64,000 nucleotides of DNA from Raillietiella orientalis (GCA_036172245.1 JAYWIR010000028.1:2046001-2110000); one strand, 5' to 3'; shown: positions 5,127 through 59,904, counted from the first letter of the stretch. Program-made: numbers and translations. Notes: generated from the letters alone by a model not told the origin.

Positions 5127-7419
5127 AAATGTTGGTTCCACTTTCCACATGCAAGAATTCATGTTTCTTTCTGTATCAGAGCAAATATAGTTGGCATCCA
5201 ATAAGGGAACTTCTCAAGCCACGTATAGAGCAAATGCATATTAGCAACTTCTCATACCTTTATTTGCAATTGATTCCTCTGTTCTTTCTGAAGTGCACAA
5301 CTATCTCATCATAATTTTTCAAGATGAAAAATTGAAAAATTTCAAGATGAAATTTTTCAATACTTGCAAATTTGCAAAATTTTTCTTCCAAAATCACATC
5401 TCCAAGGTATTTGGATTTTACAAGGTTCTCCTTGTTTATTTATCAGTGTATATAGTTTGTCACCATTAAATCCAATTATGCAGTACGAGATGACTATAAT
5501 TCATGTTTTTCCTTTTAGTGTTTCCAATTTGTTTATGTTAGTTTGCATAGTGCTACTGTTGGAGTGTGATCCTTAACATAGAAGACAGGTTTAGCGGATT
5601 GAAAATAAATACTTGCCCTTTTGCCAAATTGTAATGCACAATTGTGTTAAAATCTCTGTTCTATGCAGATTAGTGTGAATCCATCATAGATAAGAATAAA
5701 GAATTTTCCAATGAAAACTGCGACCTGGTCTCACTGTTTATTGCCCTAGAAATTTTTTTTTATTACTAAGTACGTTTTTCAGAATCCCGGTTCTAACTTT
5801 TAGGATGGCTGTATCATTCCAAATTGTGATCTGTTACTATCGTTAGCACTTGTATGTGCATGTATACAGCGAAAGCTGTATGCATTCGATTGAATTCGAA
5901 AGTAATGGTGGTTAAATTTGAAATGTCAACTGTGCTCCAGCATCTTGCTCAAAAAAACCTTTTCGAGGATAAGTTATGCTCGTTGGAATTCTGCTATCAT
6001 AACGTTTTGGATAGCAGTTATTAGAAATAGTAGCCGCCAGAAGCATTCGCCTTTTTTTCATCCTTAGAAAAAAGGAAGAAACAGCATGGCTGGAAAGCAT
6101 TAAGAAGATCACAGCATGAACACGGAAATTAAATGCAATATGCCAAAGTATCCCTAATGGGACAATTGTACAGTAGACCCCGTACAATGCATATTTGTGC
6201 AACTTTAAAAGTTGCAACGCCTCGTACAAAACGGTGAACCCTGTCCGTGCAACGCTTTAGATAAACTGCAATTTTGTGGTATCGTGAATAAAATAACAAG
6301 ATTTCTCAACAACGGGGCTGATAGGGTTGAAACTATAGATTGTGTGCATTGAATAAAAATCAACAGAACTCCGAAAGCTTTTCTTAACTCTAAATGAAAC
6401 TCTGTTTTAAAGCGAAACAATAAATATTTTACTATAATAATGTTCAAAATACATTTTATGTTTTACAAATACTATCACATTATCCATGCCAGAGGGTCAG
6501 TGTGACAGGGAGGGGGGAGAGGACGCATCTCTTGCATTACACGGGGGGTCTACCGTACGTACATTTCTTACAAATACGTCGGAGTTCTTAAGACCCGTCT
6601 TTGAATGAACAACTTTTTCTTCAGCGGCTTCGTCCAGCGTACGAAAACCTCCAGATACTTTTGTCATTTGATTTTATTTACTCACTGTAATGACATTCCC
6701 ATCATGCGAATCGAGTCGGTAATCCAAAGATTTAAGAAGCAAATCCATTTTTGCCTATTCATAACGAATGCAACCTGAATAATTAAAGTATTAGATGCAC
6801 ACAAGCTCTCAGCTAGGTACTTGAGGTAAACAAAAGCAAATATTCTAAAGCTTAATCGGGTTTTGTGAAGATATGGTATCACTGCATTCATACTAATTAT
6901 TTTTGGTTAAGCCTCTTCTCTCGAATCTTTCGTGATTATTCACTCCTCATAATGGAGGAATTCACGCATCCTTCTTTGTGCTAATTTCAGAACTATTCCA
7001 GATTAACTCCGGCTTTAAATGGGAAATTTCCTCTTTTATCCCTAACACGCATTGTATTTTCTGTACACTGTATTTGTTGATGTTTTACAAAACACTATCA
7101 TGTGTCGTTGTATGGTATATTTCAGCTTCTATACATCATTTTAGTCCATTGACACTTTATTCCTGATTTATGCTTGAAAGTAATACTTGTACAAAAGAGC
7201 AGCACTTGAATAAGCAAGCAGAAGCGAAGGGTAAAAAAAAAATTTTTTTTTTTTTAAATGTAATCTTCATTAAGCAGCTTTAAACGAAAGGAAAAAGTAA
7301 ACAATCCTAGTGTTCTTGCGTTCCTATTATGAATATTATTTATTTTCATTATATTTTTATTTGTTCACCTTCATTCGGCACATTAAGAACCTTAGGTGCC
7401 ATTCGGCATTAAAAAATTG

Positions 7420-8197
7420 GAACAAGTACGCGTGGTCCAAGGTAAACAAACAAAATCTACGCCGCATCATAAGGGAACAAGATAAAGACATCATTGCCCT
7501 CCGAGAAGCTGCTCATCGCTAAGGGGCTGACACACTCAGCCTGTTGCCGATAGGGACGATGCTCTGGAGAAGTGACCTACCACCGGACACCCAGGACAAC
7601 CTCCTGGTACTCTATCATGGAAGAATCCTGAGCGGGTCCAGGATGAAATACTTCACAGGAGCAAGAGAAGACGAGGACTGCAAAACGTGTGGGGATGTGG
7701 ACACAAGACTGCATGTCTTGACCTGCCCCACAATACATCCAGACTGTCAGACTCTGAAAAGGGTCAGAGGGCTGCAGAACTATTCGCCGACGGAAGTCCT
7801 GGCCAAGATGTTTCCAGGAACCAGTAACGTCCCTTGTTACAATCCCATGGTTAGGACGACCGTTGCCCTGCTTATTACGGCCATCCTAGTCAGATGGTGG
7901 AAGATGATGACCGGTGGAACGGCCGTATCTCATATGGAAATCCCGAAGGGGATTATCCGAAAAGAGATCGGCATACGGAACTGTAGCGGAGTGCCAGCAT
8001 GGGCATGCCGATATATCCTGAAAAGGATTGGGGACAACGTCCAAACACTCCCCAGTGCAGAACCTTAGTGCAGTGACTCCTCGAAGTAAACTTCAATAAA
8101 AAAATAATAATGAACTTTGTTCGGAGTGGAATGAATGAGTTTGTGGAGTGAATGCAAAAAGAAATAAAATTACCCCACCCTAGTGGGATTGGGGAAG
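7420..8197 (+). mobile_element. 5'-truncated L1/Tx1-like non-LTR retrotransposon (ORF2 C-terminal zinc-binding region plus 3' end)
   Basis: Translates SDLPPDTQDNLLVLYHGRILSGSR...CKTCGDVDTRLHVLTCP...YNPMV...IRKEIGIRNC, homologous to 13270-13740. Flanked by a perfect 15-bp direct repeat GGCATTAAAAAATTG (7405-7419 and 8198-8212). Confidence 0.9.
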
Positions 8198-9074: not shown

Positions 9075-9150
9075 ATACTTCGAGGCGATCTTGGTCACCA
9101 CTCGGAAGCATAATTTTTGGGCTGGGAGACTGCGTTCGCGCGGACTCCTG
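9075..9150 (+). ncRNA. U1-like snRNA 3' fragment (SL3, Sm site, SL4) at the 5' end of the retroelement; not a full gene
   Basis: CGA-GGCGAT-cttg-GTCACC-ac-TCG hairpin (9081-9104) with U1 SL3 architecture; Sm site AATTTTTGG (9112-9120); GGGAGACTGCG-TTCG-CGCGGACTCCT stem-loop (9124-9149) matching U1 SL4 (GACUGCGUUCGCGC); ends in CCTG like U1. SL1 and SL2 are absent. Confidence 0.75.
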
Positions 9151-9243
9151 CGAAAGTTTTTGAAAAAAGAGTGTTTTCGAGCGTGTGGAGCGTGAAGTGT
9201 TTTTCCACGGACGAACAGTGAACCTCCCCCGGCCACCCCGAGT

Positions 9244-10389
9244 GTGCAGGACATTCCCCGAATGGACTCGCCCCCCCAGGGGAAGATGGAGGCGATGGGA
9301 CGTCTCCACGACGAGGGAGGTAAAGGCGCCCGCGTCAGCGGAAACGGCGCGAGCACCCCGCGTGGCATCGGCGTGGCGGCAGCAGCGGCGGCCCCATCTC
9401 ATACGTCGAACGCAGGTTCGGCTAAATTAGGAAGTTCTCCCGGGGTGCCCCCGGCCAAAGGAACAATTCCGGCAGCACCGGAAGTATTCGTGCTTGACCA
9501 GGAGGATCTACCGCTTCTCACGGTGGGGCCGGAGGTCAAGCCTGTTGTTTTTAAAACAGGATCGCTGAGGATAGCAAACTCGAAGGACATCTCTACATCG
9601 CCCTTCACCAGAGGAACGTGGACTTCGACGTCGTCAAGGCGATCATCCCGAGCGCAACCGGCTTCACGATATACACCTCGTGCGAGCCGCTGATGGAAGC
9701 GCTGATCGAGCATGGTCTTTCCATCAACGGCAGGGTATTCCGCGGGATGGGGAAGTCTCCACGACGACAGTCTTCCTGAAAGAGATCGACTTTAACACCA
9801 CGAGGCGGACAGTCCAGTTTCTCTCCAATATGGAGAGGTAATCTATATGGAGCTCGGGCGCGCTGCTCGATGTTCCCATTGAACATCTGAAGTGGCCCCC
9901 GGTGCTTATGAACACTCCCACCCTCCCCTTAAAATGGCAGGAGTCGGCTCTCCTGTTGCAGCACTGGGGACTCCCCTGCAACGCCCGCCGACACTACTGG
10001 GTCTGGGGAGCGGTGAACCCAATTGTGTTAGGTGTGGGGAACGGGAGTCCCTCCTCCACCTCCTGGTGGATTGTGTTGCCCTTCGGCCCCTTTGGTTACG
10101 CTTTGCCGCGGCCATCCGAATCCCCTGCGGTAACCCTAGGGACGCTTTAAAAGCCCTCTTCGTTGCCGACGCCCTTCGGCCTGCGGCCTCGTTAGCAGCC
10201 CTGTGCTGCCTTCGCGGGATCGTCGCCGCTTGGAGCAAGGTTGCAGGAGGACCCCGCGATAAGGGTGCCATCCAGGGCGCCGCCCAATTCCTGAGGAGGG
10301 CGTCGCGATAGCCCCACCAGGATCCGCGAATACAGGAGGAGCTTGCCGACATCCTGCGAAGGATGCAACGGCCCCAGCAGCAACAGTGA
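9244..10389 (+). pseudogene. Disrupted ORF1-like protein: low-complexity N-terminus, RRM-like segment, fused zf-RVT-like C-terminal domain
   Basis: Across frameshifts it reads DFDVVKAIIPSATGFTIYTSCEPLMEALIEHGLSINGRVF..TTTVFLKEIDFN (Tx1/ZCCHC3-type RRM pattern), then LPLKWQESALLLQHWGLPCNARR..PNCVRCGERESLLHLLVDCVALRPLW (C-x2-C..H-x4-C). Internal stops are present. Confidence 0.6.
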
Positions 10390-10596
10390 TCCCTTCCCGT
10401 ACCCTCCCACTTTTTCTTTTCTTTTTGTTTAGTTTTTTTGTTTTTCCCCCTTTCCCCTGCTGCCGAGGTCGACCGCGCCGGTCTGCGCACCGGTAGCCCT
10501 GCAAGCTGATACTTTCTAGGGCGTGGCTGGACTACTGGTCCAGTCACAGTTTAGATAAGTTTATTTGAAAAAATAAACGTCCGGGCGCAATCGGGT
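10388..10596 (+). other. Conserved T-rich, multi-hairpin non-coding spacer (3'-end-like element) of the ORF1 module
   Basis: GATCCC(T/G)TCCC start, pyrimidine tract, CGGTCTGCG motif, hairpins GTGGCTGGAC/GTCCAGTCAC and GTTTATTT-GAAA-AAATAAAC (10559-10578), then a CCGG..TCGG hairpin. Recognisable in six other places in the window. Confidence 0.7.
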
Positions 10597-10606
10597 TTCA
10601 ATCTAG

Positions 10607-13600
10607 TTGGAACGACGACCGGACGCCCAGCTGTTCCTGGGCGCGGGCCAGAAAAGGACCAAAGGCGTGGCGATTCTCGTGAAAAACGAGATCGCACACA
10701 CCATTCTGGAAACCTTTTCACCTTGGCCGGGCCGCATCGTCGGATTACACATGTCCTGGTCCGGAAACGTTCATCTGTTCCTGGTGAACGTGTACGGTCT
10801 GCACCGAGGCAAACATCGCTGCGCAGAGGCCGTACAGGCTCTGCTATGCAGCAAGGTCTCGGCAAAGGACATCGTAATCGTCGTGGGTGACTTCATCTTG
10901 GACAACATCACCCAGTCCAAGGATGCACGGGGAAGAACGGCCTATCGGCGGCTGTCGGACGAGTTCGGCCTCCAATGGCTAACCGCGAGCAGCAAGCCGA
11001 TCGACCATGTCCTGTCCAGGGAGGACATCGCGAATCGTTTGCAAGGCTTCCGAGAGGCTCCATCTGTACTCTCGGATCATCCCTAGCTGCGATTCACGTT
11101 GAAAACGGAAAACCCCCGTAGGAAGGAAGGCGCGCGGGCTGCATTAGTATGCATGCCCGCATGGTTCGAGACGCATCCCTGTCACCAGGATTTGACCGAG
11201 GCGATCCTGCGGAATACCACCATACGCAGGGTCGCCGACTGGGACAGTTGAAGCGGACAATCCATTTATTCAGTAACATGTAGTTCGGCGACAGGCAGAT
11301 GAGGGTGTAAGCGTACCGGGAGCTCGAACAGCAACAAAATCTCTCGCTCTCGAAATACTGGCCACAGTACGAGAGTTGGTACGTGTTCAAGATCGTCAAA
11401 GGGGAAGTTGGAGTGCTGGAAAGAAGGAACATCGCCAGCGATGGACGCAGACCGGTTGGACCGGCACGCAGACGAAGTCAGGCATACGTCCGAAGGAATC
11501 GCGGAGGCCTTCCACCATCATTACGCCTCTCACTTCCGACGGCGTCGTCTGTGCCCGACGGAACAAGAGAACATCCTGCTTTACCTGCATCCGCGTGTGA
11601 AACGGGAACAGCAGCAGAAGATAGAAGAAGAGATCTCACCAGAGGAAATCAAGATTGAGTTCGCTGGACTGCGCAAGGATGTGGAGGCAGGTCACGACAG
11701 TGTTTCCATCACGCACTATCAGCGGTACCTGCACGCCTACCTTCGCCTGTTCCACGAGCTCACAATCGCCATCCAGGAAGAAGGAAGACTCCCAGCATCG
11801 TTCCACGAGGGAAGGGTGAAACTGCTGCCGAAGGGGGGCCACCTGTTGGAAGTCACCCAATGGTGGCCGATCACCATCCTCAAGACGGATGCCAAGTGGC
11901 TGGCCAAGATCTGGGCCAACCGCTTAAGCATGGCCATGTCATCCGTCGTGTCTCCTACGCAAACATGCGCGGTGCCCGGACGATGCATGTCTGCGAACGT
12001 GAAGTGTGCCTTGGCCACCATCGGTTATTGCCGATATATAGGCGAAGACCTGGTGCTAGGGCTCACTGATATGGAGAAGGCATTCGACACCGTGGACCAC
12101 CAGATGCTGTTGGAGATCTTGAGGAAACTGGGCTTCCCAAGCTTCTTCATGCACTACCTGGAATGGACCCTCGAGGAGCAAGTCGTGAAGATCAGGATGA
12201 ACGGGCTGGAAACAGCAGCAATTCGGATAGAAAAAGGGTTTCACCAAGGCGACGCCTTGAGTCCGATGCTGTTCGTGCTCTACATGGAGGCGGTGTCCGC
12301 GATAGTAGATCGCGGCAGCCGTCTAAAAGGAATCCGAATCGACGGCCAGCAGCTGACCCACCTGGCGTATGCGTACGATCTGTTGTTCTTCCTTAAGGAC
12401 GAACGAGATCAAGAAGCATTCCTAGGTGTGATCAAGCAGATAGAGAAAGGTCTAGGACTCAAGATCAACACCCAGAAGAGCTACCTGCTGCCAATCGGGA
12501 TCTTGGAACTCTCCTCACTGCAAGAGGCCGGATTCCGAGCAGCAGAAACCGTGAGATACTTGGGATTCTGCCTTGGCGACGAGACTGCGTCACGCTGCCT
12601 ATGGCAGGAGATCCTGGGTAAGGTCACCGATGAAGCCACCAAGTACATCCGCGTCGACTTCAACATGAAGCGGAGGGCCGCCTTGTGGAATGGAGTTCTC
12701 CTTCCCAAGGTTCTCTACGGAGCGGCCTTCTGCCGAATGGACAAGAAAACAAAGGCGGAGCTGGAGAGGCTACAGCGGAAGATCCTAAGGCGGAAATATA
12801 GACCCAGGGTTCGGCTGACACTGGACAATGGATTCAGATCGACCCCACATGGAAGCGCAAGCAGGCACTGCTGAGAACCCAAGGGTTCAAAATCGTGCCT
12901 AGGAGCAGCGAAATATGGGACGAAGAACTGGCCATGATGATACCTCACTTTATCCCGATCCGACGGGAGACAGTGAACTGGTTAAACCAAAGGCCAAGAC
13001 AAGATTCGACGGTGCGAGCAGTTCGCTACTAGTGCCAACCGGCAACCAACTGCGACTGCATCGCCTGACCACGATCTTGCGGGGTTGCTTCAACCATCGC
13101 ACCCTGGAATTTTGGAAAGAGCAGCCGCATGAGGCGTGGCTACTTATGACCAAAGCCAACATCAGGGTGGAAACCGCGAAGAAACACCAAGACCCTGATG
13201 CCCTCAACGCAGCCTCGAGCCGTTACGGTCCTGCACATGCGAATGTGCTGGCCGTAGGGGCTGCACTCATGAGTGACCTTCCCCCTGACACTCAGGACGA
13301 CCTGCTGTTGTTCTACAACGGAGGCATTCTGAGTGGTTCCAGACTGCGGCACTGGACCGGGAAATAGCAAGACGGATTCTGCATGGCGTGCGGAGAAGAG
13401 TGAACTCAACTCCAAGTACTCACCTGCCCCACGCTGCGACCAGACTGGAACGCGGTGAAGGCGGTGACGTGCCTGCAGAGGAAGACAGCAATCCAGATCC
13501 TGTCGGGATTGTTTCAGGGGACAGGAGTTGTTCCCCTGTACAACCCGATGGTGCTGACGACGCTGGCCCTCTTTGTCACTGCCATAGTGATAAGGAGGGC

Positions 13601-13770
13601 TAAGATGTACACCCAGCGACGACAAGTGCCGGCATGGGATATCCTCAGTGGCCTTGTACGGAAGGAAATCAGGATCAGGAGCTGCGGAAGGATCGCCGCC
13701 TGGACGTACCGGTACATCCTAATGAAGATGGACGAAGACACCCAGGCACAGAGGACGACCCCCCCTCCCC
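10607..13770 (+). pseudogene. ORF2 of L1/Tx1-like element: APE endonuclease, reverse transcriptase, C-terminal zinc finger; disrupted
   Basis: EN motifs KGVAILV, LVNVYG, GDF(I), IDHVL, SDH. RT motifs KLLPKGG, W(W)PITIL, DMEKAFDTVDH, GF(H)QGDALSPMLF, AYA(Y)DL, GLKINTQKS, RYLG. C-terminal CMACGEE..LTCP. Several stops and frameshifts; catalytic YADD reads YAYD (12368-12379). Confidence 0.93.
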
Positions 13771-16700
13771 TTAACCCCGAAAACAAAAGTGACAGAATAT
13801 TGAAAGTGGAGTGCAATTTAACTCTACAGACAAGAAACAGATGTGAAAATTGTAAAAGTGTATGACTAGAGTTTGTGGATTTTTGTTTCTTAAAATAAAT
13901 TCACCCCACCGCTTGTCGGACCTGGGGACAATACAGATAGCATGTTTAAATCTCATATGAATCCTAATAAAAGACACACTTTTTTTTTTTAATCAGATCT
14001 GCAACCTTTAAAATAAGGATGCAATTCATTTTCGCAGCTTTAGAAACATCTGTCTAATACCTAGAAATGGCTACTTTAAAAATATTTTCAGACATGAAAA
14101 TATTTTTCAGACTTACTGCCTCTGGATTTTATATTAGTATAGATAATATTTAAAATCGAGTAGGAGAATTAATATCTTACAATCCATTTTACTTCAGTGA
14201 ATCGAATGCATTCGAATCAAACACTCATATTCCGATTTTCTTGTAGCCTTTTAATAATAATTTAATAGCCTTTATCTTGTCCTATGTTCTTGAAATGTGT
14301 CACATACACACAAATATGGTGCAAACATACTGTAATTATGATGGTTTATAATACAAATAGCACAATATAATAAGTTTCTAGGAGAAAAACTGAGCTGATT
14401 TTTTTAGATGAAACATTTAATTTCAGAAATCAAGCCAGATATCTGATTTGGCAATGTCTGCATTCTGGCTAATAAGGTATACAAAATTGCAGTCTTAATC
14501 ATCAACTGAGTAGGTGTTCACACATATACTTTGAGCAACTTCCAATTGCTTTCTTTTAGATGAAAGGTATTAATAGGATCGACGTCTTCATTTGAAAACG
14601 ATGTGATCCATGAACATTAAAAATTTTAATCCACAAACAAGAATTCCTTGTTGATAGAAAAACTAAATCGAATACATGTTGAAACGGTACTTGAATTCTG
14701 TTCTATTATTTTGGACAAAGGCTGATGAATTGATAGACAGAATTCTACTGCGTTTCCAACATGAATGCTGGAGAGGTGGAAGCAAATTTTACATCATTCT
14801 GTGGAGATAGTGTTGCTACTTCTCACATAGCAGTATTCAAGAAGTCATTGTCATTAGTGATGATCAGTGTAGACGGAAAGTATTCGAGTGAGCAAGCATT
14901 TGAAATATTTTAGAATCGAATCGCCTTTAGAAAATGAATATCATGAGCTTCTTAATTTCCCCTTTATATCGTTGCGAGATCTTAAGAAAACACATCGGAG
15001 CAGTGCTAATAAGGAGAATCGTACTCAAACACACATTGGTAACGGCAAACATCGCGGAGGGTATAGCATAAAGGAAAAGAGCCATTAGGTGTGGCAATGT
15101 CCCGCTGGCAATGTAGCAGTATCTGCTCCTCAGAATCAGGAGCTCCATCCGAGAACGAAATAGAAGAAGCAGTGTAACTTCAAGAGCAAGATAAATGCGA
15201 CAGTGCATATGGAATGTTTGATGTTGTGAATGAAGCTTTCCTATTGCAAGTATTCTTATTGTAAATATTACATTAACCTTTGCTTTGATGTTTATGGATC
15301 AGGGAGTCTGAAAGAAATTCAATGGCATCTCAAGGTTAGTCAGATGGAGTAAAATTACTCAAAAAGTATATCTGCATGCACAAGTAGAGAATATCATCAC
15401 TTCGAGATAGAATAATCATCAAAGATCTTTCCGATGTCTGGTCTAATTGGATTACAGGTTTTCCACCTGCATGGTTGATTCCTGGACAAAAGTCTGCTAG
15501 AATGGACGCTTTTGGAATTTTGAATAAATAACTAAAGTGATTTAAAATTCCTTCGAATCACTTTACAAGAATTGCACCTTGAATTAGAGCTCATTTGTTT
15601 TGGAAACATCCAGCATTTATGCCTCTGCTTTGGGAAGTAGGGAGTCACTTTGACATGCTCCCTTCCCCAGAGTTCCTTCTCTGGAACCGACCTCAGTCTC
15701 TTACAAATGCCTATATTAATCCATCCGATCCTGTATTTAATTTGAAATGTGTCCGTTGTATCGCATACGACCGTTCATCCCATGCTCAGGTAATGCTCGT
15801 GAAAAAAAACTTCCTCTGTTCCTTCATTCCTTCAAGTACATAGAGTATTCACCTCTTGTATTACATAAAATATTTTTGGATATCAGTAATCGTTAACTAC
15901 TCTTGTTTTTCATTAGATTTATAATAATTACAAAAGAAACCCAGCCACCTAAGAAATCCCTTGAATTCTTTTGCCGACTCCAACGATTTCTTTGTTGGCG
16001 CTTTCAGTTTCATATTGATTTTTTGAAACATACACTTTAACTATATTTCGACAAATATGAAAATCTGTTGAACAATATTCTTTGGCAAATTAAGCAATCA
16101 TGTGCTGCTGTGAATAAATTATATATTGACCGTTAAAGCTGTTATTTGTAATCATATTACCCAATTTTGATACTTAAATCATCACATCTTACATTCTGCA
16201 TAGAAAACTGAGTTGAAAGATAAAATAATGCAAATTCTACGATCTTTTTATGTGCTATTTAAACAGATTTCGATTGCGGAATAAAACTACGATGCATACA
16301 TAAATTTTTTTAAAAAAAATGAGAAGGTGTTCTTGGTTTGTTGTCATTCAGTTTGTGACCCCATCTCTTTCATTTTGAATATATGTTTTATTATTCTGAA
16401 AGAGACAAATTCTGTCATTCGTAACGATTTCTCTAAGTATGCATCATAACGAAAAATGCTTCCGTTCTGTTCTTGTTTTGTCTTTTACAGAGAATTCTAT
16501 ACCCAACGAGCCTTTGTTTTCATGTCGAAATTCATTGAATCAATTAAACTCATTTCGATATTTCAAAATTTGGCAGTCAGATTTTCAAGATTCAATGAGA
16601 GCATTCCAAATCATGTCTTGCTTTTTTAGCTTCTATTGCATTACAGTTTTTCCTGAAACTGGCGGTTTTGTGGTGAAAAGTGGAGAAATAAATGTTAGTC

Positions 16701-19118: not shown

Positions 19119-19154
19119 AGTTTTTGCTCCTGTTTTTTCAAAATGAACTGATCT

Positions 19155-26244: not shown

Positions 26245-26690
26245 GTGAAGGAGCGGACCCCCATTCCGGGGGGGACCCCTCCGCGTCGTACTGATGGAGT
26301 AGGTGTGTCGCCACCACCCCTCCAGAGAGTGCAGAAAAGCGAGCCGATCCCTCCAGGGATTCTGTGTCCTTCTGAATTTCGGAAGCGTCCCTTCTGGGCT
26401 CTCTTCAGAGGAGTGGCGGATCCCATGCGGGGGATCCCTCCGGAGAAGAATTCCAGGATCGGACCCTTTCCGGGTTCCCTACAGAGAAGAAAGAATGGAG
26501 CGGACTCGTTCGGGGGTGTTCCGGAGAGAATAAGGGAGGAGGATTCCCTTCTGGATTCCCCTTCGGAGACAACCAGGGTGGAGGTGATCTCCATTTCCGG
26601 GATTCCCTCCCCAGGCGTGAGAGGAACGGACTCAGAGTCCTTCTTGGATTCATAGGGCGTAACCCTCCCGGGGTAACCCCTACCTTAAAG
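26245..26690. repeat. Degenerate ~42-bp GC-rich minisatellite block, copy 1 (homologous to 33600-33975)
   Basis: Recurring GAGCGG(A/T)CCC..CGGGG..CCCTCCGGAGAAGAA units spaced about 39-43 bp; shares the end GGATTCATAGGG..CCCTCC.CGGGGT.CCCC with copy 2. Confidence 0.65.
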
Positions 26691-26861
26691 AATTATCCAC
26701 CCTCGGGTGGCGTGTGACCGTGTCGAAGAACTGCGAAGAAAAAAAAGGATTTCCATCATTTTTTTTTGCACGATTTTTGTGTACTTCGAAGAGCGAAAAG
26801 GGAGCCGTCACTGCCAAGTGTCACGTGGATGCCACCTTTCTCCACACTTTCTTTCTCCTTT

Positions 26862-34689: not shown

Positions 34690-35390
34690 GGAAGGTTCCT
34701 ATTCTTTTGTTGCCCTTCTGGATGCCCACCTACAAATGCTAGGGCGGAGGTCATCAAATCTTTCTGTCCTTAGACTGTCTGGTTCTCCTCCTAGACGAGC
34801 AACCGGAGTGCCTTCTGCCCAGAGCTGCACCCTCAGTATTCACTGACGGGGTGCGCATTTCTTCCCGTCCTTCTCCCGCCCATTCTGCGCTTTTTCTTGG
34901 AATGCAGCGACCCCGAGGGTGAGTGGCGGAGACGAACTTCGGTGCTCCGCCACCCGGAGGGCACCTCATAGGACCTATTGCGGAGTTTCTTCACAAGGGC
35001 CGGCTGACGACAGGCGCTGCGATTGCGACGAGATGCTGCATCCGCTCCATCGTTGCAGTCCAGTCCACGACGGAGCCTCACTCGCAGCGAAGGGAGGCTA
35101 CTAGCGTGGCAGCCTCCTTGGTCAGGAGGGCTGCATGGTGGTCCCGCCTGCAAGAAGGAGAAGTCTTCAGGGAGATGGTCAGCATCCAGCGTCAGCTCTA
35201 GGAAGAAAGAAGCAGCTGAAACCAAAGATCCCTGTCCCTACCTTCCTTACCTTTTTTACTTTATTTATCCCCCCTCTCCCCTTGCTTCTGAGTCCTTTAA
35301 AAGACGGTCTGCGTGCCTGTGGTCATCCCCAGTGAACTTCCTTTTGTTGTCTCTGCTTTTGTTGTATTTAGGAGACTCAGCTCAAAGCTC
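34690..35390 (+). mobile_element. Decayed ORF1-type zinc-finger module plus partial spacer
   Basis: FLECSDPEGEWRR..DLLRSFF..GAAIATRCCIRSIVAV, then GATCCCTGTCCCTACC, a T-tract and CGGTCTGCGTGCCTGTGGTCATCC. Confidence 0.6.
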
Positions 35391-42859: not shown

Positions 42860-43275
42860 GGAGCAAAAGAGATTTTTACCCGGTGACGGCAGGACGTTGA
42901 TTTAAAAAATAAACCACAAGTCAGAGGGGGCGGTGTCTCCTGAATACAAGAGGAGTCAAAAAAAAAAAAGTCCACCATGGATGACCATCAGCACGCAGGC
43001 CGAATTTTAAAAAGTAGAGAACGGAGAGGAGGGACAATAAACAAATAAAAAAAGACGAGAGGGTAGGGACAGGGGCCAGCGGGTCTTTGGTTTCATTCGT
43101 TCCTTTCTTTCTAGAGGCGGCTGTGTATGGTTGTGAACTCACTGATGACTGTTTCTGGCAGATGAGGCCACTTTGCAGACGTTGTCCTGAAGGCTCCATG
43201 CTCCTAGCCTTCCATCACGAGCGGGGTGTCACCATGGCGCGAAGGCAAGAGATCGTTGCGATCGTGGCGCCCGTG
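42860..43275 (-). mobile_element. 3' tail of ORF1-type zinc-finger module plus full spacer
   Basis: GATIATISCLRAMVT tail, then CCCCTGTCCCTACCC, a T-tract, CGGCCTGCGTGCTGATGGTCATCC and GTTTATTT..AAATCAACGTCC..ACCGGGT. Confidence 0.65.
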
Positions 43276-43629
43276 TCACCACTGCCGGCTCCCATCTTCC
43301 GAATTCCCTCTCCGGTGTGTCGCTGCTCTGGTGAGAGCGAACACGTGAACTTGCTGCTGCCCTGCGAACGCTTCGGCTTGGCGGCAGGAGAAAGTGAAAA
43401 CGTGGGCCCATCTCACTCGTGCCCCATCGGAAGTTACCCACTGACGAGAGTTGCAGAACAGCGGAAGAACACCGGAGGCGGTGAGTAGTGAGCTGACTAT
43501 GTTGGCCTACCCACTAGCCACCCCTTTCGCCGCAGCGGTGTCCTCCGCTATCGAAGAACATGGCACCGGCCTACCGGCGAAATGGGAGGTTACCTGCGAG
43601 ATCTCGGTCCGCAGGAAGCCAATCGGTGG

Positions 43630-44430
43630 CTGAACTACGCGTCAGCTGGCTGACGCGGCAACAGCAAGAACCGTCTCCAAAGGACTGGAACGTTGGGGCA
43701 AACTCTTTTCCATTCGGTCCGGAGAGTTGGAACTGCCCCCCGTATTTGTGGACAGAAAACTGCTTCCCCTCAAGTGACAGCAATTGGCGCTCTTGGTGCT
43801 GCACTGGTGTCTTCCGTGCAATGCGCGCCGGTACCACTGGACGAGGGGAAAAGCATCTCCGAACTGTGCCAGGTGTGGAGAGAAGGAGACCTTCCCCCAC
43901 CTCATAGTGCTTTCCGAGACTTATGCGAACGTTCCTTTGCGTCCCTTCCTCACCCCGTGGACGATTCCAGAGACTGTTTGAGGTCCCTCTTCGTGCGGGA
44001 CGCCATGACGTCCGCAGACGCAATCGCAGCGCTATGCTGCTTGCGCGTCGTCGTAGCGGCTTAGTGCAACGCCGAGAGAGGACGGAGCGACGGGGGCTGT
44101 CCTGCACGCCATCTGCTTCCTGCAGATACCTTTGAGGTGGCCCCACCTGGAAAGAGAGGAGCTCGCCAGCATCCTTTAACGGATGCAGAGGCCTCACCCA
44201 CCACGAAATGTGATCCTTTCCCTTCCCCCCAACTGATCTTTTTTTTTTGTTAGTTTTTATTGTTTGTTATAGTTTGTTTCTTTTTTTCTAGTTTTGTTTT
44301 ATCCCTTTTCCCCTTCGTGAACGTGATGGATCTCGATGGCCTCCCCTTAGTCTTAGTGTAATAATTGGGATCGGTAAGCCTTTTGGTTTCATTGATCCCC
44401 CTAAGAGAAATAGACGCGCCGGCTCACTCC
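43630..44430 (+). mobile_element. ORF1-type zinc-finger module plus spacer
   Basis: QLADAA..KGLERWGKLF..LLPLK*QQLALLVLHWCLPCNARRYHW..SPNCARCGEKETFPHL..SLFVRDAMT..AIAALCCLRVVVAA, then GATCCTTTCCC and a T-tract. Confidence 0.8.
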
Positions 44431-44449
44431 TTGAGTGAAGAAGCGTCGC

Positions 44450-44790
44450 AGTAAGTCCGGAGCGAGGGAGTCATGAGGTCAACGGAGCGCCGGAACTGGA
44501 CTCCATCACTTGTCCTCCAGGGCACTGTGGCCCAAAGAAGGAGCTGGGGGAACGATTCCCGCGTCCCAGACCTTAAACAGATCGGGGAGGGAACTCCCTG
44601 CAAAGCAGGTGTTCATGCTGATTACACTGGAGTCCCGAGCGCAGAAACATCAGAACGTCCCGTTTCCACCAAGCGGGAACACGGAGGTGTCCACATACGA
44701 GGGAGGGAACACGACTTCGGAAGTCACACTCAAGAAGTCACTCTACTGCCTGGAAGCAAAGAGTTCAGCCGTCCACCAGCTCGCACCTCC
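44450..44790 (-). mobile_element. ORF1-type zinc-finger module fragment, close relative of 52690-53010
   Basis: Nucleotide match CACTGGAGTCCCGAGCGCAGAA.CA.CAGAACGTCCCGTT.CCA..AGCGGGAACAC.GAGG with 52869-52935. Confidence 0.75.
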
Positions 44791-45239
44791 CCGCAGCCGT
44801 CCAGGAGTTTTTCAACCCCGGTCATTTTGCAGAACTCTCACCCCTCCGGTTGGCTACTATCTATTGCTTACCCTGAGGGCAGGCAGTGATGCGGCAAGGG
44901 GTGTCACGGCAATCCGGGACCACTGAGCCCAGTCCTGCAGAAGATCTCCCAGAGGCTTACACGAGAGTTTCCACAGCGGATGCAGTTCCTCTGGATACAC
45001 TTAAAAAGTTGCAATCCAGGACCCCAGTGCCTCTTGCCGCCAGGCATTCCAGTTTTTGGAGCTGTAGAAAATCCACGGGTTACCTACCAGAAGTGAGGAC
45101 AGATGCCTCCGGGTCAGGGGTAGCCAGATCTGGTCCTTCGGCGCAGGATGAGCGGCAGCAGCAGAACAGGAGCGAAAGAGCGAGCGCGTGGCTTTTCCAT
45201 CCTTTCCTTGGAGCGTTTTCCTAAGCGCCGGCTGGCGTT

Positions 45240-45720
45240 CAAGTGGATGACGCTGCTGTCGTAGTCGCCTCTTTCGGCGGGGCTCCAGGCAGCCACGATC
45301 CCGCTAGGCAGCAAGGTGCTGCCAGGGACGCGGCTGGCGTGAGGGCATCACGCACGAAGAGGCGCTTCAGAACGTCTCTGAGGTCGCCGTCGGGGGACCA
45401 CGGGGGATGCGGCAAAGAAAGTTCCCACAGGGACCGGAGGACCACACGGTCCACGAGCAGGTGCGGAAGGGTCTCTCTTCCTCCACACCTGCTGCAGTTT
45501 GGGTGCACCCTCCCGGGTCCTGCGATGTCGGCCGGCGTTGCACAGAAAATCCCAATGAGACAGCGGAATCGCCGACTGCTGCCACTCCAGAGGGAGGCTG
45601 CGAATGGTTTCTTAGCGTTGAGAGCCACTCGTAGTCTTCCCGGAGAATTCCCGGTAGCTTGTCCCGGCGCGAGAGTCCTTTCGGTGGGTTGTGAGCTGGC
45701 CCGTGGTGCAGCCACCTCAA
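45240..45720 (-). mobile_element. ORF1-type zinc-finger module
   Basis: KGLSRRDKLPGILREDYEW..HPNCSRCGGRETLPHLLVDRVVLRSLW..LRDVLKRLFVRDALTPAASLAAPCCL. Confidence 0.8.
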
Positions 45721-46539
45721 GTCTTCCCCCTGGAGTTCACCTCGCAGTAAACCTCCCACCTTGCCGGCAGGCAGCTCGCCCCATATCGGGAGCAGGCCCT
45801 ATTCCCGATCTTCTACTAAGCTGGAGCTACGATTGGCAGGAAGTTTAGCCGTGTCGCACGGATGGACTCGCAGTCTCCACAGGGCAGGCCACACCCTCGT
45901 CTGGAAAGGCTGGAAGGCCGCTGCATCGACCGCTCTTTTCTGCGCTTCCTGGGAGTGCCCGCTGGCCGCCTGACCTCCGCTCCCGAGAATTTTCTGCGCT
46001 GACTTTTCTGCAAATTACGCTGCGGCCAGCGGTCCTCTCCCCCATCGAGACCGCGCCTTCACGGGAGGTTCTGTAAGCGTCCAGAGCGGCCTTCGTCTGG
46101 CGGCTGGCTTTCTTGTTCCGCTTTGTTTAGGTCACTCTCCAGGCACTCCGAGGTCTCCTCGGCGCGCGCCTCAGCTGACCACTTGGCTGTTGCTCCTTGC
46201 GCAGCTTTCCTGAAATCCACGTGCAGCGCATCGCGCTTGCGGGCGAGATGCGCACGAAAGGGAATGCGCACGGGAGACGCAGGGCTCTCTGGAACGGTCA
46301 CTTGAGGAAAACATTGGAGCATCGGTGGCAGCCGGAAGTCAGAAGAGCCACTCGAGGAAGAGGAAACGGGAAATCAATGGTCCGTTTCTGAGCGGCGAAG
46401 GAGAGGGACTTGCAAGGTTGAAATCCACGCGTGGGAGGATGGTCCGGGGTGTGCAGAAATTCGGCAGCGAAGAAGATCGATATGTGAAGGGGGAGCACTC
46501 GGCATGGAAACGGGGGGCAAGGGGGCGAGGGAGGGAGGG

Positions 46540-52204: not shown

Positions 52205-53700
52205 ACGCTCTGGGTTCGAACCCGGTTACTCCGGCGCGTTTGTTTTGAAAAAACAAACAAGCAAACAAAATACACTACAAAGAGGAGGGGAAGAAGGGTA
52301 TCCCCTCAAAAAAAAAGAAATGCTAAAAAAAAAAAAAAAAAAAAAAAAAGAGTTTTTCCGGGATAACCACCGGCACGCAGGCAGGCTTCTGAAAAGTAGA
52401 GAACGAAGGAAAGGTACAGTGAATAAATAAAAACAGACGAAAAGGTGGTGACAGGGGTCTTTGATATAAGACATTCCTTCCTCTTTATAAGCATCTGTGG
52501 ATGCTCACGATTTCCCTGGCGACTTCTTATGGATGATGAGGCCACCTTGCTGCATTCCTCATGGGGACTGCTGCTGTACTGGTGGTCTCTCTTCGCCGCG
52601 AAAACTTGATTCCAACACATGGCGGACTGTCACTATGGAGCGGATGCAACAGAGTGTTGCGATCACAGTGCCCTTCTTCTTCTGTGAAGGATCGTCGCAG
52701 TAAGTCCATTGCAATGTCCTGCGGTCGACGGAGCGCCGAAGAGAGTCTCCGCCACAAGTCCTCGAGGGCACTGCAGTTCAACGAAAGGTGCGGGATCGAT
52801 TCCATCTTTCCGCACCTTGAACAGTTCGGGGAGGTGACTCCCCGGAAAGAGGGTGTTCCTGCTGATTGCACTGGAGTCCCGAGCGCAGAAGCAGCAGAAC
52901 GTCCCGTTCCCATCGGAGCGGGAACACTGAGGCGTCCATGCACAGGGGAGGAACCACGAGTTCTGTGGGGGGCACGCCAAGCAGGTCACTCCGTCGGAGG
53001 AGTCCCTTCTCCCGGAAACGAGGAGTGGCGGCGTCCACCGACGACGCTCTGGGTGGGGGGAGGTGGGAGCGCGACGCTTTCCTGAAAGAGGTTCCGGGAA
53101 GCTCGTCCGAGACGAACTTTCCCAGAGAAAAGCGGATCTTCTCCGTTTTCTTCCCCGAACGGGTTGCATCGTTGCTCAAATGGCGAGTGGTTCCGAGACC
53201 CGGTGCCATCAACCTGGATGCGCATCCGAGGGAGTTTGGAGGACTTTCGCGAGATTATTCGGAGATCAGCGCCATCGCCGGGGTCCGTCTTCATCGAAAA
53301 TATCGCTACCGATGTTCGCGTCTTCGTCTTTGGGTCCCCAAAATTACATCGTGGTAGTAAATTTGTAGCTTTATTACGGGAGATTAGCATAAAGCAATTT
53401 TCTGGGCTCGTTTTAATTAGGGAAGGAACCGTCAGGAAAGAGGCTGCTTTGGAGCGTACGAGCGCTGAAAGCCAAATGAAGCGGTCAAGAGCCGAAAAGA
53501 ACGCAGCAGCAGCAGCAGCGCACGCTGAGGAGTGCAAGATTGCGCTGCTGGGCAGAGGGGATGTTTCAGAGCTGCCCTCTGCGCCCAGCGCCCCTCTAGA
53601 AGACCCAGAGGTGCGGACCAGGCCCGTTCGCGGCGGAACGCAACGCAGGCGAAACGGGAGATCGACTGGGGAGAGGGAAGGAGGAGGAGGGTGGATATTC
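52205..53700 (-). mobile_element. ORF1 (RRM/knuckle relic) + zinc-finger module + spacer, no RT
   Basis: KLPRMRIQVDG..QRCNPFG, then VDAAT..KGLLRRSDLLGV..FPLRWERDVLLLLRSGLQCN..SPNCSRCGKMESIPHLSLNCSALEDLWRR..IATLCCIRSIVT, then a spacer with the GTTTGTTTT/AAAACAAAC hairpin (52238-52258). Confidence 0.75.
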
Positions 53701-58249: not shown

Positions 58250-59830
58250 AGGGGCAACCCGACGAGTGAGCCAGAGCCTCTGCGGTGTGGCCATCTCTGC
58301 TTTTCGGCTGGGATCGAAGAGGACCCTAGAGGAGCCCCTCAGCCAATCTGGCGGAGTGTCTGGTGATCCCGCCGCGTGCGTCGACATGGGCGAAATCCTC
58401 CCGCTAGGGATGCCGGCATCCTGACACTGAAGAGAATCGGGCTGCGAGTGCTCAGCTCCGAATGGACGGGCACTTTGTGCCAAGCTGTGGACTTACCCGT
58501 TGTGTGCGCCTGCACGCATCATCCTGCGGAGATGCGCCGGCAGAGGAGGATTGCTCCCGCTAATGCCGAGCGCCCGTTGCAGGATGTGGAGATTTGGTTC
58601 CCCCCTGAGGCAACTTGCCTCGCTAGTTGAAGCCCAACCGCGAATTCCCTGTCGCCCAACGAACTACAATGCTTGGGTGGCAGGAGACTGCTGAGTCCTG
58701 GGTTGCATTCCACGAAATGCGCCCTCAAGTTCTTTACCCTCTGCGGCATCTGCTGCCACGATCTTTGGAAGTGGTGATGCAGGACGTGGAGAAGGGTCGA
58801 TGCTAACCGCCACACTTCTTGCAGCAGCCCTCTCTCCCCTCGGGGCAAGAGAAGACAGGGAGATGGGAGGTTTTTCTTCACCACCGCGGGAAGGACAAAA
58901 CTCCTTGCTGGTTGGAAAACGTGCAAGCTGGTGGATGCTGCCACTCTGCCGTGCTTTGGTGACGGAACTCCTTCGGTGGAGCAAACTTTTGAGTGTTGCA
59001 CCCGAAAAACTTTGGTCCCTCCACATTGTTTGGACGCTTCCCTGTTCCCACACTCCTGGAAACAGGCCGTGCTGCTCTTCCACCACTGGGAATTCCAGTG
59101 CAACGAGCGGAGGCACCGCTTTCCGCAGGGGCTGCATCCCCGAACTGCGCCAAGTGCGGGTTGGCGGAGTCGATGCCATCGAACCTGCTTTTGGATTGCG
59201 GTGTCCTCCAGGAACTGTGGCGGAGACTGGCAGCAGTACTCCTGCATCAAGAGGACACCGTCCGAGATGTGTTGCGACGGTTCTTTGCGCCGGGTGCACT
59301 CTCGATGATTTCAGCTATCGGTTGCGTCCGTGCCATCGTCACCGCCCTCCATGTGCTCGGGATCACCAAGCAGAAAAGGGAGGTCACCAGGATGGCAGCC
59401 GCGTACATCAGAACGGCTTACAGGTGGTCTCACCTGGAACAAGTGGTAAAGGAGAAGATCGACAGCATCCAGCGTCGGTTGGTGAATAGTTAAGAACGGC
59501 GGACACCTGTGATCCTTGTCCCTTGCCTCCCTTGTTTTTTTTTTCTCATTCTTCATCTCCGTTGGCTCCGTGATTTCCTCGGCGGTTTTTATTTTGATCC
59601 CGGTGCGCTAGGAGCGAATCCAAAGATTCCTGACCCATCCTACCCAATTTATTTTATTTTATTTTTCATTGTCCCCTTATTTTTCCCCCGTTCCGGATTT
59701 TCCATTATCCCGGACTGCGTGTTGGTGGACTCTTCTCTTGAACTTTTGTTGTCTCGGCTGGGAACTGGTTTATTCTTTCTTGTAAAATGAACGTTTCGGT
59801 GTGATCGGGTGACAAAAATCCTCCCAGGAC
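58250..59830 (+). mobile_element. ORF1 relic + zinc-finger module + duplicated spacer start, no RT
   Basis: TLEEPLSQSGGV..DMGEILPLG, then KLVDAA..ELLRWSKLLSV..AVLLFHHWEFQCNERR..SPNCAKCGLAESMPSNLLLDCGVLQELWRR..AIGCVRAIVT..RWSHLEQ*, then spacer motifs at 59511, 59624, 59711 and 59768-59810. Confidence 0.78.
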
Positions 59831-59904
59831 CTTTTCCGTCCCGAAAGAAGCGTTCCTTTGAGCGGGCAATTGACGGGAAAAAACACTCCCGTTCTCCGTT
59901 ATTG

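What the first reader, a model, noticed from the sequence alone, without database searches (positions are those of the whole stretch)
9244..10389. ORF1-like protein fused to a paralog of the ORF2 C-terminal zinc-finger domain, conserved across divergent copies
Seen: a domain of about 200 aa (L.DA..GL.R..LL.....LP.KW...LLL.H.GLPCN.R...PNC..CG..ES..HL..DC..L..LW...A.CC.R.IV) recurs, whole or partial, at 9.85k(+), 34.7k(+), 43.1k(-), 43.6k(+), 44.5k(-), 45.2k(-), 52.5k(-), 58.9k(+) and 60.1k(-). In the 9.2k, 53k, 58k and 61k copies, ORF1-like RRM/knuckle relics lie within about 1.1 kb upstream, too little room for EN-RT. The domain differs clearly from the ORF2-linked version (LPPDTQD..ILSGSR..C..CG..LTCP). 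Inference: the fusion is old and was selected at the protein level, perhaps to bind the 3' RNA structure or partner the RT.
Basis: partly seen in the sequence, partly recalled or inferred. Interest (0 to 1): 0.8.

Follow-up and report, generated by a model that had tools for sequence, protein, structure and literature searches.

The report
Decayed retrotransposon tails with zinc-finger domain
The repeated 200-residue domain is real and once evolved as a protein, but it is the zinc-binding tail end of an old, dead LINE-type jumping-gene family, and the claimed fusion to an ORF1-like RNA-binding protein could not be shown.

Summary
Each copy has a C-terminal coding domain with a C-x2-C-x8-H-x4-C motif and a conserved 3'UTR. 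Five copies also end in an exact AACG-N12-CGGGT motif (0.37 expected by chance).

The domain evolved under purifying selection. pN/pS is 0.47-0.69 in frame and about 1 in the shifted frames. It is a distant paralog of the ORF2 tail of the window's only RT-bearing L1-like element (hhalign 76%, E 2e-5).

The "ORF1-like RRM/knuckle" part is not supported:
- 0 of 15 upstream pieces match any Pfam family at E up to 10.
- No C-x2-C-x4-H-x4-C knuckle exists in any frame of the window.
- Both AlphaFold models have pLDDT near 50.
- The 53k copy is simply truncated at about 53042.
- The flagged copy's own upstream 650 bp resembles no other copy's upstream region.

No copy contains RT. Every copy is also shorter than the distance from RT to the 3' end in the neighbouring L1-like element.

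Two physically defined 5' ends coincide within about 10 nt. I therefore lean, weakly, towards a discrete RT-less unit of about 1.2 kb rather than random 5' truncation. Only one database relative was found.

The parts
9085..9739 (+). GC-rich stretch upstream of the flagged copy: ATG at 9262 and open frames of 165, 74 and 88 aa in three different frames. Origin unknown; not shown to belong to the repeat family.
   Evidence: No similarity to the other copies' upstream region (nhmmer; protein profile; frameshift-aware alignment z=1.4). The one exception is a 19-aa match, 9332-9388 to 43337-43393 (BLASTP E 0.003 for a single comparison). No Pfam hit at E<=10. No RT similarity. AlphaFold on 9555-9776 gave pLDDT 52.
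9740..10389 (+). Copy c9, coding part: zinc-binding C-terminal domain. In frame from 9842, with a frameshift near 10000. C-x2-C-x8-H-x4-C lies at 10024-10074; stop at 10387-10389.
   Evidence: nhmmer 9740-10602 against 60720-59901, E 1e-64; tblastn; motif scan; zf-RVT E 0.035; Atlas zf-RVT-bearing clusters at 0.94-0.95.
10390..10600 (+). c9 3'UTR: T-rich tract, a conserved CTGCG..GG block, an AATAAA-like signal and the terminal AACG-N12-CGGGT motif (10576-10596).
   Evidence: 3'UTR profile hit E 1.6e-41. Exact terminal motif found 5 times against 0.37 expected. 5-bp hairpin without covariation.
34882..35382 (+). Copy c35p: 5'-truncated, holding the last part of the domain plus the 3'UTR.
   Evidence: nhmmer; tblastn.
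42874..43276 (-). Copy c43m: the 3' half (domain end, 3'UTR and terminal motif at 42878-42898) of an older copy that was split by the insertion of c43p.
   Evidence: The c52m equivalent 52677-52216 is contiguous with the c44m equivalent 53041-52675; motif.
43277..44425 (+). Copy c43p: a discrete 1.15-kb insertion. 43250-43915 is a single reading frame with 4 TGA stops, running from the shared upstream stretch into the zinc motif.
44426..45162 (-). Copy c44m: the 5' half of the split older copy. Its 5' end abuts the ORF end and the start of the 3'UTR of c45m.
   Evidence: nhmmer 58559-59296 against 45162-44427, E 7e-41.
45163..45848 (-). Copy c45m: domain plus part of the shared upstream stretch. 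It lacks most of its 3'UTR.
   Evidence: tblastn 58% identity, E 5e-19; nhmmer; upstream profile hit 45690-45848, E 1e-9.
52216..53042 (-). Copy c52m: 5'-truncated at about 53042. Intact C-x2-C-x8-H-x4-C at 52773-52823; terminal motif at 52220-52240.
   Evidence: Homology to four other copies stops at 53039-53042; zf-RVT E 0.0055.
58559..59812 (+). Copy c59p: the longest traceable copy (about 1.25 kb). ATG at 58563 in frame with the shared upstream stretch; terminal motif at 59790-59810.
59901..60850 (-). Copy c60m: 60997-60101 is one reading frame with 6 stops (5 TGA, 1 TAG) and no frameshift. Terminal motif at 59907-59927, tail to tail with c59p.
10607..13926 (+). Comparator: 5'-truncated L1-like element (partial EN, RT, zinc-binding ORF2 tail). 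It starts directly after the 3' end of c9 and carries a different 3' end (AAATAAA followed by another hairpin).
   Evidence: Exo_endo_phos 7e-7 and RVT_1 1e-23.
7361..8196 (+). Comparator: 3' fragment of a related L1-like element, the ORF2 tail with the 'LPPDTQD ... C..CG' version of the domain.
   Evidence: tblastn 47% identity over 176 aa to 13242-13766, E 2e-48.

Best explanation
The recurring domain is the C-terminal, zinc-binding (zf-RVT-type, C-x2-C-x8-H-x4-C) protein module of an extinct non-LTR (LINE-type) retrotransposon family with two subfamilies. It always comes with the family's own 3'UTR and a fixed 3' terminal motif.

Shown:
- All nine copies share this tail.
- The coding part evolved under purifying selection.
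- The non-coding 3' blocks are conserved.
- Five copies carry about 130 further conserved codons upstream in the same frame.
- No copy holds RT or EN.

Inferred mechanism: copies were made by target-primed reverse transcription that starts at the conserved 3' end. The longest form is a discrete RNA of about 1.2 kb that begins at the start of this one ORF. It carries no RT, so RT and endonuclease came in trans from an autonomous LINE. The encoded protein is an ORF2-tail homolog and probably bound the element's own RNA or 3' end.

The flagged locus 9244-10389 is not a conserved ORF1 fusion. From about 9740 it is a family copy. What lies upstream is GC-rich sequence of unknown origin.
For: - Nine copies found.
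- 3'UTR profile hits all 7 copies that retain a 3'UTR, E 1e-26 to 1e-41, and nothing else in the window at E<1.
- Exact terminal motif 5 times against 0.37 expected; 0 of 100 shuffles reach 5.
- pN/pS 0.47-0.69 in frame with CI<1 in 11 of 12 pairs, and mostly 0.8-1.4 in both shifted frames.
- The upstream stretch gives 0.65-0.81 in 3 pairs.
- c60m and c43p read as single frames across upstream stretch and domain. 7 of their 10 stops sit where relatives have Trp or Arg.
- No RT or EN elsewhere in the window: tblastn E<=1; Pfam on 280 of the 317 ORFs of at least 80 aa; a 10-sequence RT profile on six-frame read-through gives best i-E 4.2.
- Discrete 5' end. c43p is a 1149-bp insertion that splits an older copy, so its 5' end at 43273-43277 is physical. 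c44m begins at about 45162, directly after the ORF end of c45m. In family coordinates the two ends lie within about 10 nt, and c59p's homology starts there too, at an ATG (58563).
- No copy is traceable beyond this point.
Against: - Every copy (400-1250 bp) is shorter than the 1360 bp from the end of RVT_1 (12568) to the 3' end (13926) in the neighbouring L1-like element. Plain 5'-truncated tails of an autonomous LINE would therefore look the same.
- With nine copies, 'none reaches RT' is only mildly unlikely under truncation. My rough estimate is 5-20%.
- A 1.2-kb unit starting at its ORF has no 5'UTR or promoter.
- At the shared 5' end, two of the three copies that begin there have CTG, not ATG.
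- Five other copies end at various points, as in ordinary TPRT truncation.
- The coincidence rests on two junctions plus one homology limit in heavily decayed DNA.
- The window's only RT-bearing elements have a different 3' end, so no partner is identified.
- No intact copy, transcript or whole genome was available.
- The upstream 130 codons and their weak selection signal fit an ORF2 post-RT region equally well.
Confidence: 0.45

Rival explanations
1. Ordinary 5'-truncated tails. The family is an autonomous L1-like LINE whose ORF2 ends in this zf-RVT-type domain. All nine copies in the window are 5'-truncated before reaching RT. The shared upstream 130 codons are the post-RT region of ORF2. 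The coinciding 5' ends reflect a strong-stop or truncation hotspot, or an internal or processed RNA start.
For: - The order domain, stop, 3'UTR, terminal hairpin is the same as in the window's ORF2 element.
- All copies are shorter than that element's RT-to-3'-end distance of 1360 bp.
- 5' ends vary among five copies.
- Purifying selection is expected for ORF2.
- The upstream stretch has no ORF1 features.
- Atlas neighbours are short zf-RVT-bearing clusters; that they are ORF2 tail fragments is my reading, not a tool result.
Against: - Two physically defined 5' ends lie within about 10 nt and none lies beyond them.
- No RT fragment occurs anywhere in 38 kb of GC-rich repeat debris.
- An ATG sits at the shared 5' position in c59p, and in c9 if the two ATGs are aligned by eye (one search did not match c9 there).
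- A profile search of 1.84 billion proteins found no long RT protein with this tail.
Confidence: 0.4
2. One reading: an ORF1-derived protein (RRM with or without a CCHC knuckle) was fused long ago to a copy of the ORF2 zinc-finger domain, and the fusion protein was maintained by selection.
For: - c9 has an ATG (9262) and open frames upstream of the domain.
- Five copies have a conserved coding stretch upstream in frame.
- The language-model recognition score of 9555-9776 is protein-like (3106), though its hits are below 0.9.
- There is selection on the domain.
Against: - 0 of 15 upstream pieces match RRM, ORF1, CCHC or any other Pfam family at E<=10.
- No C-x2-C-x4-H-x4-C occurs in the window.
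- AlphaFold gives no confident fold and no beta-alpha-beta pattern.
- c9's upstream part is in other frames and is unrelated to the other copies' upstream part.
- The 53k copy has no family sequence upstream.
Confidence: 0.08
3. The flagged locus is a chance juxtaposition. A family copy 5'-truncated at about 9740 lies next to a fragment of an unrelated GC-rich element (9085-9739), so there is no single ORF at 9244-10389 at all. This concerns the c9 locus only, so it is compatible with the best explanation and with the first rival, and its confidence is not exclusive of theirs.
For: - c9-c60m similarity is strong in the domain (z 77) and the 3'UTR (z 33) and falls to noise upstream of 9740-9860.
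- Three different frames are needed to read across the locus.
- No other copy matches 9085-9739.
Against: - A 19-aa collinear match, 9332-9388 to 43337-43393 (E 0.003).
- The ATG at 9262 can be aligned by eye with the ATG of c59p (the 5' profile did not match c9).
- The frame 9575-10150 is continuous across 9740 apart from one stop.
- Conservation may simply drop at that point.
Confidence: 0.5

Closest known systems
C-terminal zinc-binding domain of L1/Tx1-type ORF2 proteins (Pfam zf-RVT, PF13966)
   Same: - A Cys-x2-Cys ... His ... Cys motif preceded by a hydrophobic 'LP..W/Q...LL' segment.
- It lies at the very C-terminus, just before the 3'UTR.
- Weak Pfam hits (E 0.035, 0.0055).
- Profile-profile match to the window's ORF2 tails.
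- Language-model neighbours carry zf-RVT.
   Different: - Scores stay below the Pfam gathering cut-off (15-18 bits against 27.5).
- No RT is seen upstream in any copy.
- The 110-residue helical tail after the motif has one relative among 1.84 billion proteins.
HAL1 (half-L1): non-autonomous L1 derivatives that encode only ORF1p (passages read in PMC5753468, which cites Smit 1999 and Bao & Jurka 2010; those two papers were not read)
   Same: It would be a LINE derivative that keeps one ORF under selection, lacks RT and depends on an autonomous LINE. This holds only if the discrete-unit reading is right.
   Different: - HAL1 keeps ORF1; here the retained ORF is homologous to the ORF2 tail and shows no ORF1 feature.
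- No partner LINE with the same 3' end was found in the window.
Ordinary 5'-truncated LINE copies with a conserved 3' stem-loop ('stringent' 3'-end recognition; named from my own knowledge of LINE biology)
   Same: - Conserved 3'UTR blocks and a fixed terminal motif after an AATAAA-like signal.
- No poly(A) tail.
- Variable 5' ends in five copies.
- Nested and adjacent insertions.
   Different: Two or three copies share one 5' end, and none extends to RT.

Membership tests
Pfam zf-RVT (PF13966) | HMM score at or above the gathering cut-off (27.5 bits) | tested here: not met
   15.2 bits (9883-10311) and 17.8 bits (52530-52985). The ORF2-linked version also reaches only 15.5 bits.
Pfam zf-RVT (PF13966) | Cys/His zinc-binding motif at the C-terminal end of the domain | tested here: met
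   C-x2-C-G-x7-H-x4-C is intact at 10024-10074 and 52773-52823. It is recognisable with single substitutions in the other copies (alignment A5).
Pfam zf-RVT (PF13966) | Lies C-terminal to a reverse transcriptase domain in the same protein | tested here: not met
   No RVT_1 or RT-profile match upstream of any of the nine copies. The copies may simply be too short to reach it.
Non-LTR (LINE) retrotransposon | Encodes RT (with or without an APE endonuclease) | tested here: not met
   The only RT and EN in the window lie at 10607-12871 and belong to another family.
Non-LTR (LINE) retrotransposon | Copies share the 3' end and vary at the 5' end | tested here: met
   The 7 copies that retain a 3'UTR all match the 3'UTR profile. 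The exact terminal motif is kept in 5. Traceable copy lengths run from about 400 to 1250 bp.
Non-LTR (LINE) retrotransposon | Target-site duplications flanking the insertion | tested here: inconclusive
   The flanks of c9 and of the adjoining ORF2 element show no repeat above shuffled expectation. The c43p junctions are too decayed to call.
LINE ORF1p (type I: RRM + CCHC knuckle; type II: coiled coil-RRM-CTD; classification recalled from Khazina & Weichenrieder 2009, not read here) | CCHC knuckle C-x2-C-x4-H-x4-C | tested here: not met
   No instance in any of the six frames of the 64-kb window.
LINE ORF1p | RRM or ORF1 profile match | tested here: not met
   0 of 15 upstream pieces match at E<=10. 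9196-9693 and 9555-9779 give nothing at E<=1.
LINE ORF1p | RRM fold | tested here: inconclusive
   AlphaFold on 9555-9776 gave pLDDT 52 and only low-confidence helices. The upstream part of c60m gave pLDDT 28-46. No fold search was run on such models.
HAL1-like ORF-bearing non-autonomous LINE derivative | Discrete full-length form without RT, shared by independent insertions | tested here: inconclusive
   Two physical 5' ends lie within about 10 nt and a third copy is consistent. Only nine copies were available and no genome.
HAL1-like ORF-bearing non-autonomous LINE derivative | 3' end shared with an autonomous partner LINE | tested here: not met
   The ORF2 elements in the window end in AAATAAA plus a different hairpin. 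The 3'UTR profile hits none of them.

The most novel reading that the evidence does not exclude
A retroelement of about 1.2 kb that has kept only the last third of a LINE ORF2. It holds an N-terminal stretch of unknown fold, the zf-RVT-type zinc-binding domain, and its own 3' recognition motif, and it has no RT, EN or ORF1. It stayed under purifying selection through the split into two subfamilies. This would mean the ORF2 C-terminal domain can work as a free-standing protein that marks the element's RNA in cis and borrows a LINE's RT in trans.
Probability: 0.4. Interest if true: 0.6.

Novelty: new variant of a known kind. Interest (0 to 1): 0.35.

Why it matters
If the short RT-less form is real, it would be a mirror image of HAL1: a parasite of LINEs that keeps the ORF2 C-terminal domain instead of ORF1. 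That would offer a natural experiment on what this poorly understood domain does, for example RNA or 3'-end binding or cis-preference. If the copies are only truncated tails, the finding is an ordinary dead LINE family. It would then be notable only for having almost no relatives in public protein collections, and for showing that the window's 38 kb of GC-rich debris holds no recognisable RT.

Tried and rejected
- Whole genome: none is held.
- Sequencing runs: none was listed, and no RNA holder was listed. No reads were laid, so expression was not tested.
- Database relatives:
  - A profile search of 1.84 billion representatives gave one real hit, an 87-aa fragment (P0010), and one weak hit. 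Neither cluster has a name.
  - Word-index searches with alignment A5 found nothing, at both 'longer' and 'near' lengths.
  - Two metagenome scans found nothing.
  - The phage collection gave nothing.
  - Earlier findings of the scan were irrelevant.
- PDB sequence search: only chance LIM-type hits at E>=0.08.
- AlphaFold:
  - c60m read-through with a 13-row alignment gave mean pLDDT 50, reaching 70-86 only in the last 60 or so helical residues.
  - 9555-9776 alone gave pLDDT 52.
  - I ran no fold search because the models are too poor.
- Atlas search on 9555-9776: best score 0.80, uninformative.
- Idea that the upstream stretch is RT motifs C-E: BLASTP E 2.9 and 10 and no RT-profile hit. Rejected.
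- Idea that the 5' leaders are pieces of the family's 3'UTR: the 3'UTR profile does not hit them. Rejected.
- Target-site duplications around c9 and the ORF2 element: nothing above shuffles.
- Rfam and tRNA scans for ribozymes or SINE heads: nothing.
- hhalign of the upstream profile against a mixed ORF2 alignment: no signal, and that alignment was poor.
Profiles of in-frame pieces were used instead.

Full report
**Setting.** The window is AT-rich (about 33% GC) with GC-rich blocks of 50-58%. It holds spliced-looking host exons: Helicase_C at 17819-18502, Peptidase_M17 at 19168-20488(-), and a weak enkurin-like hit at 4670-4963. No whole genome is held. It reads as a eukaryotic chromosome stretch with a repeat graveyard from about 26 kb to 64 kb.

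**RT in the window.** There is exactly one RT-bearing element, a 5'-truncated L1-like copy at 10607-13926. It scores Exo_endo_phos 7e-7 and RVT_1 1e-23. A 3' fragment of a relative lies at 7361-8196. Its RT has only about 27% identity to anything in a 5.8-billion-protein index.

**Observation.** The recurring domain is real.
- tblastn with the 9883-10311 frame finds it at 45.3-45.5k(-) (58% identity, E 5e-19), 59.1-59.4k(+), 60.2-60.5k(-), 52.7-52.9k(-), 43.8-44.1k(+), 35.0-35.1k(+) and 44.5-44.65k(-).
- nhmmer adds the 43.1k(-) piece and gives the extents of all copies.
- The copies are old. blastn at E 1e-5 sees none of them.
- By eye, and by the pattern of nhmmer scores, they fall into two subfamilies: c9, c43p, c45m and c60m in one; c35p, c43m/c44m, c52m and c59p in the other.

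**What the unit is.** Homology between copies does not stop at the stop codon. It runs through a 3'UTR of 200-330 bp to a fixed end.
- A profile of the 3'UTRs recovers all seven copies that still have one (E 1e-26 to 1e-41) and nothing else in the window at E<1.
- Five copies end with an exact AACG-N12-CGGGT motif preceded by an AATAAA-like signal. 0.37 are expected by chance, and 0 of 100 shuffles reach five.
- The motif can form a 5-bp hairpin, without covariation support.
- The two L1-like elements in the window end in the same style, AAATAAA plus a hairpin, but with a different sequence.
- This anatomy is that of LINE 3' modules: C-terminal coding domain, stop, conserved 3'UTR, terminal recognition motif, and variable 5' ends.

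**Identity of the domain.**
- It carries C-x2-C-G-x7-H-x4-C. The motif is intact in c9 and c52m and recognisable in the others.
- It gives sub-threshold zf-RVT hits of E 0.035 and 0.0055.
- It has language-model neighbours at 0.94-0.95. 10 of the 30 hits belong to the set whose listed cluster carries zf-RVT on 44% of its members.
- A profile of the family aligns to the two ORF2 tails of the window over 68 columns around the zinc motif, with probability 76% and E 2e-5 for the single comparison.
- A profile search of 1.84 billion representative proteins found one true relative, an unnamed 87-aa fragment at E 1e-13. It found no long RT protein with this tail.

**Selection.** The test used a DNA-only MAFFT alignment, with codons defined by the c9 frame.
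- pN/pS is 0.47-0.69 in 12 pairs, and the bootstrap interval is below 1 in 11 of them.
- Both shifted frames mostly give 0.8-1.4. Two pairs in one shifted frame drop to 0.65 and 0.76, with intervals that reach or exceed 1.
- Synonymous differences are near saturation (pS 0.5-0.78).
- The domain was therefore a working protein while the ancestors of these copies diverged.
- Present copies are dead. c43p and c60m carry 10 in-frame stops (9 TGA, 1 TAG), and 7 of them sit where relatives have Trp or Arg. This is the signature of G-to-A and C-to-T decay.

**Upstream of the domain.**
- In c43p, c59p, c44m, c60m and c45m about 130 further codons are conserved. In c43p and c60m they lie in the same uninterrupted frame as the domain.
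- Their pN/pS is 0.65-0.81 in three pairs. This is a weak signal on a shakier alignment, and pairs with c60m or c9 show none.
- Nothing marks this stretch as ORF1:
  - 0 of 15 pieces match any Pfam family at E<=10.
  - No C-x2-C-x4-H-x4-C knuckle exists in the window.
  - AlphaFold leaves it unstructured, with pLDDT 28-46.
- Nothing marks it as RT either.
- c52m, the '53k' copy, loses homology to four other copies at 53039-53042. What lies upstream there is unrelated.

**The flagged copy.**
- c9 matches c60m from 9740 to 10602 (E 1e-64). The domain gives z 77 and the 3'UTR z 33, and upstream the similarity drops to noise.
- Its 9085-9739 has an ATG at 9262 and open frames of 165, 74 and 88 aa, but these lie in three different frames.
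- It has no Pfam hit, no confident fold and an uninformative Atlas result.
- It has no detectable relation to the upstream stretch of the other copies. The DNA profile finds no match even at E up to 100, the protein profile finds no hit, and the frameshift-aware alignment gives z 1.4 and below the shuffled mean.
- One 19-aa collinear match stands out (E 0.003 for a single comparison).
- The 'ORF1-like protein fused to the domain' at 9244-10389 is therefore not a demonstrated ORF. It is certainly not the architecture conserved across copies.

**RT-less element or truncated tails?**
- No copy contains RT or EN. tblastn is empty at E<=1. Pfam on 280 of the 317 ORFs of at least 80 aa finds none. 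The RT profile on six-frame read-through gives a best i-E of 4.2.
- However, traceable copy lengths are about 400-1250 bp. The neighbouring L1-like element has 1360 bp between the end of RVT_1 and its 3' end, so truncated tails would look the same.
- What speaks for a discrete short unit is the 5' ends:
  - c43p is a 1149-bp insertion that splits an older minus-strand copy into c43m and c44m. The c52m equivalents, 52677 and 52675, are contiguous across the site. Its 5' end is therefore physical.
  - c44m begins at about 45162, directly after the ORF end and the first few tens of bases of the 3'UTR of c45m.
  - In family coordinates these two ends lie within about 10 nt. c59p's homology starts at the same point, at an ATG (58563) in frame with the conserved stretch.
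  - No copy is traceable beyond it.
- Random truncation does not predict this. A 1.2-kb RNA with a defined 5' end does. That RNA could be an RT-less element or a processed or subgenomic RNA of a longer one. A strong-stop hotspot would also produce the coincidence.
- Against the short-element reading:
  - Such a unit has no 5'UTR.
  - Two of the three copies that begin there carry CTG rather than ATG.
  - No partner LINE with the same 3' end is in the window.
- I put the discrete RT-less unit at about 0.45 and plain truncated tails at about 0.40. The ORF1-fusion version gets about 0.08.

**Comparison with known systems.** The domain works like, and is a distant member of, the zf-RVT-type C-terminal domains of L1/Tx1-like ORF2 proteins, though it is below the Pfam cut-off. 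If the short form is real, the nearest concept is HAL1, a non-autonomous L1 derivative encoding only ORF1p (passages read in PMC5753468; found by the listing and read). The retained ORF would be the opposite one. A literature search for RT-lacking ORF-bearing LINE derivatives returned only mammalian L1/SVA/HAL1 work in its listing. I did not search specifically for zf-RVT-only elements, so I make no claim that none is in print.

**Verdict.** This is a real, once-selected protein domain belonging to a dead LINE-type family that is almost absent from public protein collections. A more modest novelty remains open: an ORF2-tail-only, RT-less element. It needs the genome to settle.

Noticed in passing
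42874-45848: Four partial copies of the family lie edge to edge with no spacer. c43p (+) is inserted into an older minus-strand copy, splitting it into c43m and c44m. That older copy's 5' end is joined to the start of the 3'UTR of c45m, and the rest of c45m's 3'UTR is not found beyond c43m. This looks like nesting plus either a deletion or an RT template jump.
   Followed up: partly
59790-59927: c59p (+) and c60m (-) lie tail to tail. Their exact terminal motifs are 96 bp apart.
   Followed up: no
10596-10640: The 5'-truncated L1-like element (EN homology from about 10640) starts within about 10-40 nt of the last base of c9's terminal motif. This is the arrangement expected if RT jumped from the L1-like RNA to the 3' end of a c-family RNA, but no flanking target-site duplication supports a single event.
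   Followed up: partly
43250-43915 and 60101-60997: All 10 in-frame stops of two copies are TGA (9) or TAG (1). 7 of them sit at positions where relatives have Trp or Arg. This means transition-dominated decay with few indels (no frameshift in about 900 bp of c60m), suggesting a strong G:C to A:T mutation bias on these GC-rich repeats in an AT-rich genome.
   Followed up: partly
13870-13926 and 8128-8196: The two L1-like elements share a 3' end made of AAATAAA followed by a CCCCACC...GGGG hairpin and have no poly(A) tail. This is the same style as the family studied here but a different sequence.
   Followed up: partly
26000-64000: About 38 kb of GC-rich (50-58%) sequence has long chance-like open frames on both strands. 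It holds several other repeat pairs: 26357-26746 with 33742-34041; 26834-27182 with 28906-29256 at 92% identity; and 38706-39166 with 61916-61146(-). No RT, EN, transposase or gag Pfam hit occurs anywhere in it. The nature of these repeats is unknown.
   Followed up: no
17819-20488 and 4670-4963: Host gene exons: Helicase_C (E 1e-17) on the plus strand; Peptidase_M17 / leucyl aminopeptidase (E 3e-25 and 4e-4) in two minus-strand pieces; and a weak enkurin-like hit (E 0.0012).
   Followed up: no
59490-59660: The 3'UTR of c59p contains a duplicated copy of its own first block (the 'GATCC..CCC' start followed by a T-rich run). It is seen as two alignable starts in the 3'UTR alignment.
   Followed up: no
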